A DNA stretch of 51,439 nucleotides. It comes from a virus. Location of the stretch: positions 1 through 51,439 of IMG/VR virus record IMGVR_UViG_3300045988_173665. The stretch is one strand, 5' to 3'. The notes beneath the pieces are model-generated. The model was not told where the DNA came from and ran no database searches. It saw only the letters and a list, made by a program, of their open reading frames with translations. The position numbers and the translations under genes were made by a program. This document shows, piece after piece, positions 41,524 to 43,558 of this stretch (its first letter is position 1; each line of letters starts with the position of its first letter).

Positions 41524-41976
41524 ATGTATGTAGAAGGTGATGTTCCATACGTTGGAACAACAAACGGAAATGCTAATTCTGGTTTCTTTGGTGGTGATGG
41601 CTGGTGGGCTATTATTTTATTTGCAATGATTTTTGGTTGGGGCAACAATGGTTGGGGCAACAACGGAAGTGGTGCAATGAATAACTATGTTTTAGGAAGT
41701 GATTTTGCTACAATTCAAAGACAATTAAGTGATGGTTTTGGTGATTTAACTTCTCAATCAAGATTTATTCAAAACGGCTTATGTGATGGTTTTTACTCTA
41801 TGAATACAAGCCTATTAAATGGCTTTAGTGGTGTTAACCAAAGCATTATGCAAAATGGTTATGAAACTAGAAACGCTATTCAAGGTGTATCAAGTCAATT
41901 AGCAGACTGCTTAAAGAAATTCTTTCTAGCCTTAAAGAATGTTTTTACACAAAAAACAGTAGGTAGTCTAGCGTAG
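41524..41976 (+). CDS. 5' exon of a Gly/Cys-rich repeat protein, with N-terminal transmembrane helix WWAIILFAMIFGW and GWGNNGWGNNG. The ORF as drawn reads through into the intron, and the true 5' splice site is unresolved (~41790-41950)
   Basis: The ORF lacks its C-terminus. A homologous continuation without a start codon lies at 43187..43558, beyond a homing-endonuclease ORF and a group I intron core. Confidence 0.5.
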   Translation: MYVEGDVPYVGTTNGNANSGFFGGDGWWAIILFAMIFGWGNNGWGNNGSGAMNNYVLGSDFATIQRQLSDGFGDLTSQSRFIQNGLCDGFYSMNTSLLNGFSGVNQSIMQNGYETRNAIQGVSSQLADCLKKFFLALKNVFTQKTVGSLA

Positions 41977-43194
41977 TAATACGCTACTTATAAAAATGGG
42001 TGAACTGCTGGGAAACTAAGTTCGTGTAATCAACTGGCATTTAATTAAAAATTAATGTATAATACTAGTGCAAATTAAAGGAGTTGATTATAAATGAAAT
42101 TTTATGTTTATGAATGGTTTATACCAAAAACAAATGAAATATTTTATGTTGGTAAAGGTTGTAGAAATCGCTACAAAGTTAGAAAACATAATAAAGCTTT
42201 TGAAAAGTTTTTAAAAGAAAACGAATGTGAAAGCAGAATAATAAAAACTTTTGATAGTGAAAAAGCAGCTTTTAATTACGAATATGAACGCATAAATGAA
42301 TTATGGACTATTGGGCAATGCAAAGCAAATGTTTACAAAGGTGGTGCTGGTGGGACAATAGCCTGGTGGACAAAAGAAATGCGTGAAAAGTATTCAAAAA
42401 CAAACGTTATGAAAAGTCAAAAGCAACGTAACAGGATGAAAATAAACAACCCAATGAAAAACGTTGAAGTACAAAATAAAGTAAAAGCATATAAACAAAT
42501 AAAAGTCGTTATAAACGGTGTAGTATTTAATTCAAAAAAAGAAGTTTGTTTAAAATATGGCGTTGCTTATGAAACAATTGATAATTGGTTAAAAAAAGGT
42601 GTTAATTCTTATGGTGAAAAATGTCATTTATATGGCAAAGAAACAAAAGAATATATTGGTAGATACAACAAAAGTTCAATAAAACCAATTACCTATAAAG
42701 GAAAAACCTATGAAGCACAAAAAGATTTGGCTGAATACTTAGGTGTTAACCAAGTAACAATTTGTTCATGGGTTAAAAGAGGATTTGACCCTAACGGTAA
42801 TCCATGTAGAAGAATTGGTGATGAAAAAGAATATACTTTTGTAAAAAAGAAAGATAACGAACAACATAAAAAAACAATAAAAGTAAATGGTATAATTTAT
42901 TCTTCCAAAAGCGAAGCTGAAAAAAGTTTAGGTTTGTCTAAAGGCTTTTTAGCACCTTATTTAAAAGGTGCAAGAAGAAACAATAATTTTGTATGTGAAT
43001 ATGTCAATCAGCAACCAAGCCACAAGAATAGCGAAAATTGTATTGTGGAAGGCTCAACGACTAATGAGTGAGGAACGCTAACCAATAATCTCAACACGAG
43101 TGCCCATCCCCTTAAAAAAGGGTGAAGATATAGTCTGAACTTATAGGAAACTATAAGAAATATAAGATAAAGAACTTATATGGTAACAAAATGG
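41890..43194 (+). mobile_element. group I intron (IA-like) carrying a homing-endonuclease ORF; boundaries approximate
   Basis: 3' region GAAGATATAGTCTGAAC (43124-43140) matches the conserved group I S / P7-3' element; compare T4 td GGAGAUAUAGUCUG. It is followed by a P9-like hairpin CTTATAG-GAAA-CTATAAG (GNRA loop). A td-R-like AATTAGCAGACTGC (41897-41910) supplies a complementary P7 strand AGACU. A free-standing homing-endonuclease ORF lies between them. Confidence 0.55.
42094..43071 (+). CDS. GIY-YIG homing endonuclease with three C-terminal NUMOD3-like DNA-binding repeats
   Basis: N-terminus FYVYEWFIPKTNEIFYVGKGCRNRYKVRKHN...YEYER (GIY-x10-YIG...R...H..N...E). Repeats: INGVVFNSKKEVCLKYGV...WLKKG; ITYKGKTYEAQKDLAEYLGV...WVKRG; IKVNGIIYSSKSEAEKSLGL...YLKG. 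Own RBS AAAGGAG. Confidence 0.8.
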   Translation: MKFYVYEWFIPKTNEIFYVGKGCRNRYKVRKHNKAFEKFLKENECESRIIKTFDSEKAAFNYEYERINELWTIGQCKANVYKGGAGGTIAWWTKEMREKYSKTNVMKSQKQRNRMKINNPMKNVEVQNKVKAYKQIKVVINGVVFNSKKEVCLKYGVAYETIDNWLKKGVNSYGEKCHLYGKETKEYIGRYNKSSIKPITYKGKTYEAQKDLAEYLGVNQVTICSWVKRGFDPNGNPCRRIGDEKEYTFVKKKDNEQHKKTIKVNGIIYSSKSEAEKSLGLSKGFLAPYLKGARRNNNFVCEYVNQQPSHKNSENCIVEGSTTNE

Positions 43195-43558
43195 CTGCAA
43201 AACGCAAACAGCTATTCAAGGTGTTAACTACAACTTAGCAACACAAGGATGTGCTATTCAAAACACAATTCAAACAGCTACACGTGATTTAATCGATGTT
43301 ACAAACGCTAATTACAGAGCATTACACGATGAAATTGTAGCTAACAGAATCGAAGATAAAAACGCACAAATTACAGCACAACAAAACGAAATTAACGCTT
43401 TACGTTTAGCTGCTTCACAAGCAAATCAAAACACTTATTTGATAGACCAATTAAGACCAACCGCTAAACCAGCTTATATTACATGTTCGCCATTCCAAAG
43501 CGTTTATGGTTATGGATGTGGGTGTGGATGTAACACAGGCTGTGGAAGCATTCAATAA
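43187..43558 (+). CDS. 3' exon of the Gly/Cys-rich repeat protein (no start codon); ends ...YGYGCGCGCNTGCGSIQ
   Basis: Opens directly after a TAA at 43184. No in-frame ATG/GTG for more than 60 codons. Its N-terminus QNGCKTQTAIQGV parallels exon-1 QNGYETRNAIQGV. Confidence 0.5.
   Translation, partial: QNGCKTQTAIQGVNYNLATQGCAIQNTIQTATRDLIDVTNANYRALHDEIVANRIEDKNAQITAQQNEINALRLAASQANQNTYLIDQLRPTAKPAYITCSPFQSVYGYGCGCGCNTGCGSIQ

What the first reader, a model, noticed from the sequence alone, without database searches (positions are those of the whole stretch)
41524..43558. Gene split by a group I intron carrying a GIY-YIG/NUMOD homing endonuclease
- The Gly/Cys-rich repeat protein gene lacks its 3' end. 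A start-less continuation in another frame begins right after a TAA at 43184.
- Between the two pieces lie an R-like element (AGCAGACUGC), a free-standing GIY-YIG endonuclease with three NUMOD3 repeats, the near-canonical S element GAAGAUAUAGUCUGAAC, and a P9 GAAA-tetraloop hairpin.
- This is the layout of group IA phage introns such as T4 td, with the endonuclease ORF apparently looped out between P7 5' and P7 3' (P8 region).
- The exact 5' splice site is not resolved: candidates lie between ~41790 and ~41950. The 3' splice site is near 43183-43197.
Basis: partly seen in the sequence, partly recalled or inferred. Interest (0 to 1): 0.7.

Follow-up and report, generated by a model that had tools for sequence, protein, structure and literature searches.

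The report
Mobile group I intron splitting phage gene
A gene of unknown function in a common human-gut phage is interrupted by a 1,282-base self-splicing-type (group I) intron that carries its own DNA-cutting "homing" enzyme; this is a well-known kind of mobile element, so it is a clean new example, not a new biology.

Summary
The main claim holds; several details do not.

**What holds**
- Window 41912..43193 (1,282 nt) is an exact insertion relative to seven near-identical intron-less phage contigs.
- Joining 41524..41911 to 43194..43558 gives a 250-aa protein that matches uninterrupted homologues (junction ...ADCC|CKTQ...).
- The insert follows a U that pairs with G in an internal guide sequence, and it ends in G.
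- It has the group I core: P1-P10, the P3/P7 pseudoknot and an IA-type P7.1.
- Rfam RF00028 scores 44.4 bits in the window, below the 50-bit cut-off because of the ORF. An ORF-less homologue at the same site scores 66.8 bits.
- Across nine homologous introns, 94.6% of the proposed pairs hold, and 45 of 83 show compensatory changes.

**What was wrong**
- "AGCAGACUGC" is the exon-1 strand of P1, not element R.
- The real P7 5' strand lies inside the end of the ORF.
- The ORF sits in the P5 loop, not between the P7 halves. Its last 80 nt double as ribozyme core.
- No NUMOD3 was detected.

Splicing and homing are inferred, not shown. It is a new member of a known kind.

The parts
41524..41911 (+). 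Exon 1 of the host gene (codons 1-129 plus the first base of codon 130). RBS AAAGGAG lies upstream.
   Evidence: Aligns at 98.9% to intron-less contig L001 up to base 41911 exactly. Translation matches P0001-P0005.
41912..43193 (+). Group I intron, 1,282 nt. It begins after U41911 and ends with G43193.
   Evidence: Exact insertion relative to L001-L005, L292 and L293. Identical intron in L006 and L007. RF00028 at 44.4 bits, E 1.2e-9. Covariation.
41905..41911 (+). P1 5' strand (exon end, GACUGCU). U41911 forms the U.G wobble pair at the splice site.
Evidence: Pairs with GGUAGUC at 41962-68. 93% of cells are paired and 2 pairs show compensatory change across 9 introns (helix 1).
41919..41957 (+). 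Two hairpins inside the P1 loop: P1a at 41919-40 and P1b at 41941-57.
   Evidence: P1a has 5 of 7 pairs with compensatory changes (helix 2). Both are recovered in the MFE fold. Both are absent from the L013/L140 subtype.
41957..41968 (+). Internal guide sequence: CAGU (P10 partner of exon-2 GCUG), then A, then GGUAGUC (P1 3' strand).
   Evidence: Read directly from the sequence. P10 is invariant in 7 sequences and P1 covaries (helices 1 and 3).
41969..41986 (+). P2 hairpin UAGCGUA-GUAA-UACGCUA. It contains the exon-frame stop UAG at 41974-76, followed by UAA.
   Evidence: 6 of 7 pairs are compensatory (helix 4). Stop position.
41996..42000 (+). P3 5' strand AUGGG, which pairs with CCCAU at 43103-07.
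   Evidence: 100% paired, with 3 of 5 pairs compensatory (helix 5).
42006..42028 (+). P4 5' strand UGCUGG (42006-11), J4/5 GAAACUAAG (42012-20) and P5 5' strand UUCGUGUA (42021-28).
   Evidence: Matches the RF00028 consensus AAU-UGCGGG-AAAC as aligned in L013. P5 has 8 of 8 pairs compensatory (helix 7). P4 is invariant.
42034..42083 (+). Promoter-like site CTGGCA-18-TATAAT (42034-63) and RBS AAAGGAG (42077-83) for the endonuclease, inside L5.
   Evidence: Best + strand site (10 of 12 matches). At the same position L008 and L011 have a perfect TTGACT-17-TATAAT. Function is inferred.
42094..43071 (+). Homing endonuclease ORF, 325 aa. It has an N-terminal GIY-YIG domain (about residues 1-90), a helical linker, and three beta-beta-alpha-alpha DNA-binding modules (about 136-180, 197-240 and 260-303).
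42992..43063 (+). Ribozyme core encoded inside the ORF 3' end: P5 3' (42992-99), J5/4 UAUGUCAA (43000-07), P4 3' UCAGCA (43008-13), P6/P6a (43015-52), and J6/7 plus P7 5' CUCAACGACUA (43053-63).
   Evidence: RF00028 alignment. P6a has 6 of 6 pairs compensatory (helix 9). The same sequence is kept in ORF-less L013 and L169.
43065..43107 (+). P7.1 helix UGAG...CUCA with an inner GG/CC (43065-93), then ACACGAGUG, then P3 3' strand CCCAU (43103-07).
   Evidence: P7.1 has 4 of 4 pairs compensatory (helix 11). Its position between P7 5' and P3 3' is the subgroup IA hallmark (PMC3984707).
43109..43137 (+). P8 hairpin (43109-22), J8/7 UGAAGAUA (43123-30) and P7 3' strand UAGUC-U-G (43131-37).
   Evidence: RF00028 alignment with posterior near 1.0. 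P8 is 100% paired with 2 compensatory pairs. P7 is invariant.
43140..43193 (+). P9 GAAA-tetraloop hairpin (43140-57), P9.1 hairpin (43160-81) and 3' tail GGUAACAAAAUG ending in the terminal G at 43193.
   Evidence: P9 has 5 of 7 and P9.1 has 4 of 7 pairs compensatory (helices 15 and 16).
43194..43558 (+). Exon 2 (last two bases of codon 130 through the stop). It begins with GCUG, which pairs with the guide sequence (P10).
   Evidence: Aligns to L001 from base 43194 on. No gene is called here in public contigs that carry the intron.

Best explanation
Window 41912-43193 is a mobile group I intron of the phage IA (T4 td-like) type. It is inserted in phase 1 of the second codon of an invariant Cys-Cys-Cys motif, in a widespread gut-phage gene of unknown function.

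**Splicing (inferred mechanism)**
- In the pre-mRNA, the end of exon 1 (GACUGCU) pairs with the guide sequence GGUAGUC to form P1, with a U.G pair at the splice site.
- The core folds from P3-P8 with the P3/P7 pseudoknot. P4-P6 is assembled across a 963-nt P5 loop.
- A free guanosine bound in P7 attacks after U41911.
- Exon 2 (GCUG) is aligned by P10, and the terminal G43193 is exchanged into the G site.
- The exons are ligated to encode the 250-aa protein.

**The endonuclease**
- The P5 loop carries a GIY-YIG homing endonuclease gene with its own promoter-like site and ribosome-binding site.
- Its last 80 nt are also the P5'-P4'-P6-P7 strands of the ribozyme.
- The enzyme presumably cuts intron-less alleles near the CCC site. 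Repair from an intron-containing genome during co-infection would then copy in the intron plus short exon flanks.

**Shown versus inferred**
- Shown: the exact insertion, the structure with covariation, the endonuclease fold, and the presence/absence polymorphism.
- Inferred: catalysis, cleavage and homing.
For: 1. **Exact boundaries.** blastn places L001 2714-6388 on window 38236-41911 and L001 6389-12745 on window 43194-49549. No base is shared between the ends, so the junction is unique.
2. **Spliced product.** It has the same length as, and differs by one residue from, the uninterrupted protein P0001. The CCC junction is invariant in 32 homologues.
3. **Rfam.** RF00028 scores 44.4 bits, E 1.2e-9, in the window. 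ORF-less intron L013, at the same codon in a homologous gene, scores 66.8 bits against the 50-bit cut-off.
4. **Covariation.** On nine homologous introns, 94.6% of cells pair versus 32-39% in slid controls. 45 of 83 pairs have changes on both sides, and 0 of 500 shuffles reach this. P3, P5, P6a, P7.1, P8, P9, P9.1, P2 and P1 all covary.
5. **Thermodynamics.** The loop-deleted RNA folds with z = -3.3 and recovers P1, P2, P4, P5, P6a, P8, P9 and P9.1.
7. **Mobility signature.**
   - An identical intron is found on at least 22 contigs of about 51 kb.
   - Near-identical phages lack it.
   - Four synonymous differences cluster within 24 nt of the junction (P about 5e-4).
   - ORF-less and ORF-remnant derivatives exist at the same site in related phages.
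Against: - No RNA or enzymatic data exist; splicing, cleavage and homing are inferred.
- The window itself does not reach the Rfam gathering score.
- P4, P6, P7 and P10 are invariant in the set. They are consistent with the model but add no covariation support. The homologues were partly collected with patterns from P4 and P7, which forces that invariance.
- Pfam GIY-YIG (PF01541) is not significant for this protein (11.2 bits against a 22.6-bit cut-off). The catalytic assignment rests on fold and motif conservation.
- P5 in the window has three consecutive G.U pairs, weaker than in relatives.
- The exon-1 frame runs 21 codons into the intron, across the guide sequence. Translating ribosomes would therefore compete with P1 formation.
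Confidence: 0.9

Rival explanations
1. The intron is a splicing-dead relic. The host gene would then be inactivated or truncated in this phage lineage, producing only the 150-aa exon-1 product with a 21-residue intron-encoded tail. The endonuclease gene would persist as a selfish passenger.
For: - No splicing data exist.
- The window scores below the Rfam cut-off.
- P5 is weakened by three G.U pairs.
- Public gene calls see only the 150-aa product.
- The exon frame stays open into the intron in all relatives.
Against: - Every core helix is intact in the window (one search found no non-standard pair).
- The core covaries among relatives, which implies selection on RNA structure.
- Exon 2 is intact and 100% colinear with the intron-less protein, with only synonymous changes near the junction.
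- The identical intron occurs in at least 22 assemblies, including one contig seen in 17 samples. The C-terminal half it would remove is highly conserved in 32 homologues.
Confidence: 0.07
2. One reading: R = AGCAGACUGC at 41902-11 pairs with S at about 43131, so the whole ORF is looped out between the two strands of P7 (the P8 region), with the 5' splice site further upstream.
For: CAGACU is complementary to AGUCUG by eye.
Against: - 41902-11 is exon sequence that is retained in the intron-less alleles.
- It pairs and covaries with the guide sequence at 41962-68 (helix 1).
- A canonical J6/7-P7 5' strand (GGCUCAACGACUA) lies at 43051-63 and is aligned there by RF00028 with posterior near 1.0.
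- P3, P4 and P5 span the ORF.
- ORF-less relatives differ only by loss of the P5 loop.
Confidence: 0.02
3. There is no intron. Two independent short genes are separated by a free-standing homing endonuclease gene, as in intron-less homing cassettes of T-even phages.
For: The endonuclease has its own promoter-like site and RBS. Phage GIY-YIG genes are often free-standing.
Against: - The downstream piece has no start codon or RBS and begins mid-motif.
- The joined pieces reproduce, to the codon, a single 250-aa protein found uninterrupted in thousands of relatives.
- The flanks of the ORF form a covarying group I core.
Confidence: 0.01

Closest known systems
Phage T4 td intron with I-TevI (group IA2 intron plus GIY-YIG homing endonuclease)
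   Same: - Both are phage protein-coding genes split by a subgroup IA intron.
- J6/7-P7 (..AACGACUA..), J8/7-P7' (GAUAUAGUCUG) and the 3' end (..AACAnAAUG) are nearly the same. The td sequence is recalled from memory, not aligned here.
- There is an extra helix between P7 and P3'.
- The ORF has its own expression signals.
   Different: - The ORF lies in the P5 loop, not in P6a.
- Its last 80 nt overlap P5'-P7, whereas the I-TevI ORF is looped out.
- There are three tandem DNA-binding modules instead of zinc finger, minor-groove helix and one HTH.
- The in-frame stop for exon 1 lies 21 codons inside the intron (in P2), not at the first intron codons.
- The host gene is of unknown function, not a nucleotide-metabolism gene.
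- There is no detectable sequence homology of the endonuclease to I-TevI by phmmer.
Group I introns of phages of low-GC Gram-positive bacteria (Staphylococcus K/Twort-like, Streptococcus thermophilus lysin-gene intron, Bacillus SPO1-like, Clostridium perfringens phages)
   Same: blastn finds the 3' core (window about 43048-43203) at 75-86% identity in 242 phage records. These include 136 Staphylococcus, 61 Streptococcus, 19 Bacillus and 12 Clostridium phages. Examples lie inside tape-measure genes of phiCP13O and phiCP34O and helicase genes of Staphylococcus phages.
   Different: - Only about 70-150 nt of the 3' core are shared. The 5' half has no match in that collection.
- The host gene and insertion site are different.
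- Only one record (Clostridium phage CPQ4) shares part of the endonuclease gene, at 76%.
Group I introns of human-gut phages found by metagenomics (for example Jug jumbo phages, PMC12880540)
   Same: Gut-phage genes are fragmented by group I introns, often with HNH or GIY-YIG endonucleases. Gene callers report the fragments as separate genes.
   Different: - Those introns were mostly short (about 206 nt) and sit in terL, nrdD and polymerase genes of 360-400-kb Bacteroides phages.
- This one is a 1.28-kb endonuclease-bearing intron in a phage of about 51 kb and low GC, in a different gene.

Membership tests
Group I intron (Rfam RF00028) | An intervening sequence that is precisely absent from an otherwise colinear uninterrupted gene | tested here: met
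   Seven intron-less alleles. The boundaries 41911|41912 and 43193|43194 are unique to the base.
Group I intron (Rfam RF00028) | The 5' exon ends in U, which forms a U.G wobble with an internal guide sequence (P1). The 3' exon pairs with the adjacent guide (P10). | tested here: met
   GACUGCU (41905-11) pairs with GGUAGUC (41962-68), including U41911.G41962. GCUG (43194-97) pairs with CAGU (41957-60). P1 covaries between exon and guide in L014, L168 and L169.
Group I intron (Rfam RF00028) | The intron ends in G (omega G) | tested here: met
   G43193. All 9 homologous introns end in ..AAUG or ..AUUG.
Group I intron (Rfam RF00028) | Conserved core P3-P8 with the P3/P7 pseudoknot, and conserved J4/5, J6/7 and J8/7 sequences | tested here: met
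   All helices are present with standard pairs. 94.6% of cells are paired, 45 of 83 pairs are compensatory, and 0 of 500 shuffles reach this. P4, P6 and P7 are invariant and therefore uninformative.
Group I intron (Rfam RF00028) | Covariance-model score at or above the curated gathering score (50 bits) | tested here: inconclusive
   In the window there is no hit at gathering, and 44.4 bits, E 1.2e-9, in E-value mode. The model cannot span the 963-nt P5 loop. The ORF-less homologue at the same site, L013, scores 66.8 bits. A loop-deleted construct of the window could not be submitted to the tool.
Group I intron (Rfam RF00028) | Guanosine-dependent self-splicing | not testable with these tools
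   Needs in-vitro transcription and splicing, or RNA from infected cells.
Subgroup IA (td-like) | Extra pairing(s) P7.1/P7.2 between the P7 5' strand and the P3 3' strand | tested here: met
   Helix UGAG (43065-68) with CUCA (43090-93) has 4 of 4 pairs with compensatory change (helix 11). The inner GG/CC is only 67% paired. Assignment to IA2 specifically was not tested with subtype models.
GIY-YIG homing endonuclease (I-TevI-like) | GIY-YIG alpha/beta catalytic fold | tested here: met
GIY-YIG homing endonuclease (I-TevI-like) | Signature residues: GIY...YIG tyrosines, a catalytic Arg, the metal-binding Glu, and Asn | tested here: met
   The sequence reads FYVYEW...IFYVGKG...NR. Y4, Y6, Y18, G20, R26, E63 and N79 are invariant in 30 homologues of 41-58% identity. 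Mapping onto I-TevI residues is by inference.
GIY-YIG homing endonuclease (I-TevI-like) | Pfam PF01541 at its gathering score | tested here: not met
   11.2 bits against a 22.6-bit cut-off, E 0.48. Only 3 of 30 homologues match at E <= 0.01. The sequence is too diverged, so the assignment rests on fold.
GIY-YIG homing endonuclease (I-TevI-like) | Separate C-terminal sequence-tolerant DNA-binding region built of small modules | tested here: met
   PF07460 is absent at E <= 10 for the linker segment and absent in 30 homologues.
Mobile (homing) intron | Presence/absence polymorphism at one site among near-identical genomes, with a flanking co-conversion signature | tested here: met
   Intron-containing copies on at least 22 contigs. 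Intron-less copies on 7 loci at 96-99% flank identity. 4 of 13 differences, all synonymous, lie within 24 nt of the site. Whether this reflects co-conversion or cleavage resistance was not resolved.
Mobile (homing) intron | The endonuclease cleaves the intron-less allele, and the intron is copied by double-strand-break repair | not testable with these tools
   Needs a cleavage assay and phage crosses.

The most novel reading that the evidence does not exclude
The intron may be more than a neutral passenger.

**Observation.** In all nine distinct introns at this site, the exon-1 reading frame stays open for 16-27 codons into the intron and always ends in or next to P2. The other two frames are closed within 0-4 codons in most of them.

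**Possible reading.** Unspliced mRNA would then yield a defined short isoform: the N-terminal membrane-anchor half plus a basic 21-residue tail, LKKFFLALKNVFTQKTVGSLA. Alternatively, read-through ribosomes covering the guide sequence would gate splicing. Either way, the ratio of short to full-length protein would be set by a translation-versus-splicing race.

**Second feature.** The P5 loop is a recurrent landing site where two unrelated endonuclease families (GIY-YIG and HNH-like) have each fused their C-termini to the same ribozyme core, in different reading frames.
Probability: 0.1. Interest if true: 0.55.

Novelty: new member of a known kind. Interest (0 to 1): 0.3.

Why it matters
- **Annotation.** Public gene calls on at least 22 assemblies of this phage report a 150-aa truncated protein plus a 'hypothetical protein', and they miss the 121-codon exon 2 altogether.
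- **Pitfall.** A default Rfam scan misses the intron, because the 963-nt insert in the P5 loop (which carries the ORF) pulls the score under the cut-off.
- **Natural series.** The related contigs cover the stages of a homing-endonuclease life cycle at one site: empty site, full intron with endonuclease, shortened endonuclease, ORF remnant, and ORF-less intron. This could be used to study gain and loss of mobile introns in gut phage populations.
- **Enzyme.** The endonuclease is a diverged GIY-YIG enzyme with three DNA-binding modules and an unknown target. It could be of interest as a sequence-tolerant nuclease scaffold.
- **Mechanism.** None of this changes how such elements are understood to work.

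Tried and rejected
- **Default Rfam scan of the whole window:** 0 hits. This was misleading and was resolved with E-value mode on the sub-region.
- **Alternative 5' splice site after U41908** (product ..ADCCK..): rejected. All homologues have CCC, and the intron-less DNA fixes the junction after 41911.
- **My first P4 guess** (UGCUGG with CUGGCA at 42034-39, upstream of the ORF): rejected. Relatives lack CUGGCA, and the conserved partner UCAGCA lies at 43008-13.
- **The search for related loci with the endonuclease in viral contigs:** nothing.
- **Metagenome pattern scan** with AAYTGCTGGRAAAYTAAG: about 120 loci, almost all chance matches without a group I 3' core. Only L024, L105, L129, L052, L064 and L099 were useful.
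- **Host-gene function:** no Pfam or NCBIfam family. The only PHROG match is phrog_16490, of unknown function. The AlphaFold model has pLDDT 49.6 (one N-terminal helix, then long helices), too poor for a fold search.
- **Nearest phage:** megablast of window 30000-41500 against GenBank phages gave no match.
- **Other introns in the window:** a search for a second J8/7-P7 motif found none convincing.
- **ORFs in P5 in the literature:** two full-text searches for endonuclease ORFs in the P5 loop of group I introns returned nothing. This is too weak to claim the position is unprecedented.
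Full report
**1. What is in the sequence**

The ORF list shows three pieces.
- A 150-aa ORF at 41524-41976.
- A 325-aa ORF at 42094-43071.
- No called ORF between 43071 and 43673, although a long open frame follows the TAA at 43184.

Exon-1 codons start at positions congruent to 1 mod 3 and exon-2 codons at 2 mod 3.

**2. The two pieces are one gene, and the insert is defined to the base**

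I joined 41524-41911 to 43194-43558, chosen because it puts a U before the intron and a G at its end. The product is a 250-aa protein.

A search of the large protein collection gave about 7,900 relatives.
- The best five (P0001-P0005) are 250 aa long and 99-100% identical.
- They read ...SSQLADCCCKTQTAIQG... straight through the junction.
- The alternative junction after U41908 would give CC instead of CCC and is excluded.

P0001 is encoded on five contigs of up to 54 kb. blastn of L001 against the window gives two blocks:
- L001 2714-6388 matches window 38236-41911 at 98.9%.
- L001 6389-12745 matches window 43194-49549 at 96.3%.

The 1,282 nt at 41912-43193 are therefore an insertion. The bases at the two ends differ (T/G and T/G), so the boundaries cannot be slid. 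Two further intron-less alleles agree (L292 and L293).

The exact endonuclease protein is found on at least 22 contigs of about 51 kb. One of those contigs was seen in 17 samples. L006 and L007 carry a base-identical intron. Intron-containing and intron-less forms of one phage therefore co-exist in gut metagenomes.

**3. It is a group I intron**

*Rfam.* A default Rfam scan of the window finds nothing. In E-value mode on 41700-43400, RF00028 matches 42884-43157 with 44.4 bits (cut-off 50) and E 1.2e-9. The alignment has near-certain posteriors for three parts:
- GGCUCAACGACUA (J6/7-P7);
- UGAAGAUAUAGUCUGAAC (J8/7-P7');
- the GAAA hairpin (P9).

The model cannot bridge the ORF, so it forces P1-P3 into coding sequence.

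*Homologous introns.* These resolved the rest. Endonuclease homologues of 57-58% identity (P0125, P0126) sit between split halves of the same host gene (L008, L011). Pattern scans then recovered further introns at the same codon.
- With an ORF: L014, L015, L140, L168, L238.
- Without an ORF, or with only an ORF remnant: L013/L129, L169, L172.

ORF-less L013 passes RF00028 at 66.8 bits. Its alignment shows what the window's 5' half encodes:
- P3 5' (AUGGG, 41996-42000);
- J3/4, then P4 5' (UGCUGG, 42006-11);
- J4/5 (GAAACUAAG);
- P5 5' (42021-28).

All of these lie upstream of the ORF.

*Covariation.* I built loop-deleted versions of nine distinct introns and aligned them (A2). I projected a hand-derived structure of the window onto the alignment and counted pairs.
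- 94.6% of 724 cells are standard pairs, against 32-39% when partners are slid by 1-3 columns.
- 45 of 83 pairs change on both sides.
- 0 of 500 shuffles reach any of the five measures.

| Helix | Pairs with compensatory change |
|---|---|
| P1 | 2 of 7 (exon against guide sequence) |
| P1a | 5 of 7 |
| P2 | 6 of 7 |
| P3 | 3 of 5 |
| P5 | 8 of 8 |
| P6a | 6 of 6 |
| P7.1 | 4 of 4 |
| P8 | 2 of 4 |
| P9 | 5 of 7 |
| P9.1 | 4 of 7 |
| P4, P6, P7, P10 | invariant (uninformative) |

The invariance of P4 and P7 arises partly because the search patterns came from them.

*Thermodynamics.* The loop-deleted RNA folds with z = -3.3. Its MFE and centroid structures recover P1, P1a, P1b, P2, P4, P5, P6a, P8, P9 and P9.1.

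*Splice-site rules.* These are met:
- U41911.G41962 closes a 7-bp P1.
- GCUG at the start of exon 2 pairs with CAGU just 5' of the P1 guide (P10).
- The intron ends in G43193.

*Subgroup.* A covarying helix between P7 5' and P3 3' places the intron in subgroup IA (features as listed in PMC3984707). The likeness to T4 td in J6/7-P7, J8/7 and the 3' end is from my memory of the td sequence. It was not aligned here.

**4.

- AGCAGACUGC (41902-11) is the end of exon 1, that is the P1 5' strand. It is present in the intron-less alleles.
- The ORF is not between the P7 strands. P4 and P5 straddle it, so it occupies the terminal loop of P5 (42029-42991).
- The ORF then runs on for 80 nt through P5 3', J5/4, P4 3', P6/P6a, J6/7 and P7 5'. 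It stops (UGA, 43069-71) just after the first strand of P7.1.
- The same core sequence is kept in ORF-less relatives, so RNA function dictates it. Consistently, the protein's tail (residues 307-321) is the only low-confidence stretch of 3 or more residues (pLDDT below 50) in the model.
- ORFs that extend into core sequence are a known variant (PMC3984707).

**5. The endonuclease**

Sequence methods are weak for the catalytic domain.
- Pfam PF01541 gives 11.2 bits.
- PDB sequence and profile searches give no GIY-YIG hit.

Other evidence supports the assignment.
- PHROG 314 'homing endonuclease' matches at E 3.7e-11.
- An AlphaFold model built on 30 homologues has pLDDT 80.8.
- The same search finds I-HmuI and the I-TevI DNA-binding domain for the C-terminal part.
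- Y6, Y18, G20, R26, E63 and N79 are invariant in 30 homologues.
- The C-terminal two thirds form three beta-beta-alpha-alpha modules that match I-TevI_DNA-bd, NUMOD1 and HTH models.
- NUMOD3 was not found.

The ORF has an AAAGGAG site 10 nt upstream. The best + strand promoter-like site of the region, CTGGCA-18-TATAAT, lies at 42034-63. At the same place L008 and L011 have a perfect TTGACT-17-TATAAT. An intron-internal promoter is therefore likely, but it is inferred.

**6. Signs of mobility**

- The presence/absence polymorphism is described in section 2.
- All seven intron-less alleles differ from the intron-bearing exons at four synonymous sites within 24 nt of the junction: -4, +8, +11 and +20. 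The whole gene has only 8-13 differences. The hypergeometric P is about 5e-4.
- This fits a co-conversion tract brought in with the intron. It also fits resistance of the empty alleles to cleavage. I could not tell which.
- The site is the invariant CCC motif of the host protein. That is typical of homing-endonuclease targets.

**7. Context and what remains unknown**

- The host protein belongs to PHROG 16490 (unknown function) and has no Pfam or NCBIfam match.
- Its structure model is poor: pLDDT 49.6, one N-terminal hydrophobic helix followed by long helices.
- The phage has no close relative among GenBank phages.
- Related introns lie on contigs binned with Lachnospiraceae, Bacilli and a Treponema MAG. 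The bin assignments are not verified.
- The 3' core is shared at 75-86% identity with introns in 242 phage records, mostly of Staphylococcus, Streptococcus, Bacillus and Clostridium.
- Group I introns are already known to be frequent in gut phages (PMC12880540).

**8. Verdict**

This is a real, well-formed and probably active mobile group I intron of the phage IA type, with a diverged GIY-YIG homing endonuclease in its P5 loop. It is a new member of a known kind. Splicing, cleavage and homing are inferred from anatomy and comparative evidence, and were not tested.

Noticed in passing
window 41912-41979; L008, L011, L013, L014, L140, L168, L169, L238 at the homologous place: The exon-1 reading frame stays open for 16-27 codons into the intron in every distinct intron at this site. 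It ends in or beside P2 (window: UAG 41974-76, then UAA). The other two frames have stops within 0-4 codons in most. A ribosome reading to that stop would cover the internal guide sequence. It is not clear whether this reflects selection or the A/U-rich hairpin sequences.
   Followed up: partly
L064, L147, L157 (P5 loop) compared with window 42992-43020: Related introns carry a different, HNH-like 223-aa ORF in the same P5 loop. It also reads through the P5'-J5/4-P4'-P6 core, but in another frame..NMSISSQA.. against ..YVNQQPS.. in the GIY-YIG ORFs. So two endonuclease families have independently fused to the same ribozyme core. The HNH assignment is by eye from the motif, not tested.
   Followed up: partly
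L013/L129 versus L015; L172 versus L014; L238: Different decay stages of the endonuclease gene occur at the same intron site. L013 is the ORF-less form of L015. L172 keeps only the last ~17 codons of an L014-type ORF. L238 has a 212-aa version with a single DNA-binding module.
   Followed up: partly
L008 about 2450-2480 and L011 about 2445-2475; window 42034-42063: A perfect sigma-70 consensus (TTGACT, 17 nt, TATAAT) lies at the start of the P5 loop, just upstream of the endonuclease RBS, in relatives. In L013 and L015 the TTGACA is itself part of the P5 stem. The window has a weaker CTGGCA-18-TATAAT.
   Followed up: partly
window 41908, 43201, 43204, 43213: Four synonymous differences separate the intron-bearing exons from all seven intron-less alleles, clustered within 24 nt of the junction. 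The C at 41908 turns a U.G into a C-G pair in P1.
   Followed up: yes
window 37817-38236 versus L001 2316-2714: A patch of about 400 bp, inside or at the end of the 245-aa ORF at 37479-38216, does not align between the window and the otherwise 96-99% identical intron-less contig. This could be a swapped segment.
   Followed up: no
window 46000-49500 (by homology to L001 8749-12219): Downstream genes include an SMC_N/AAA_23 616-aa protein and a metallo-beta-lactamase-fold protein that matches Pfam Anti-Pycsar_Apyc1. The latter may be a cyclic-nucleotide-degrading anti-defence gene (precomputed Pfam).
   Followed up: no
L015 5252-5323 (- strand): A tRNA gene (59.4 bits) lies in the related phage contig that carries the L015 intron.
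   Followed up: no
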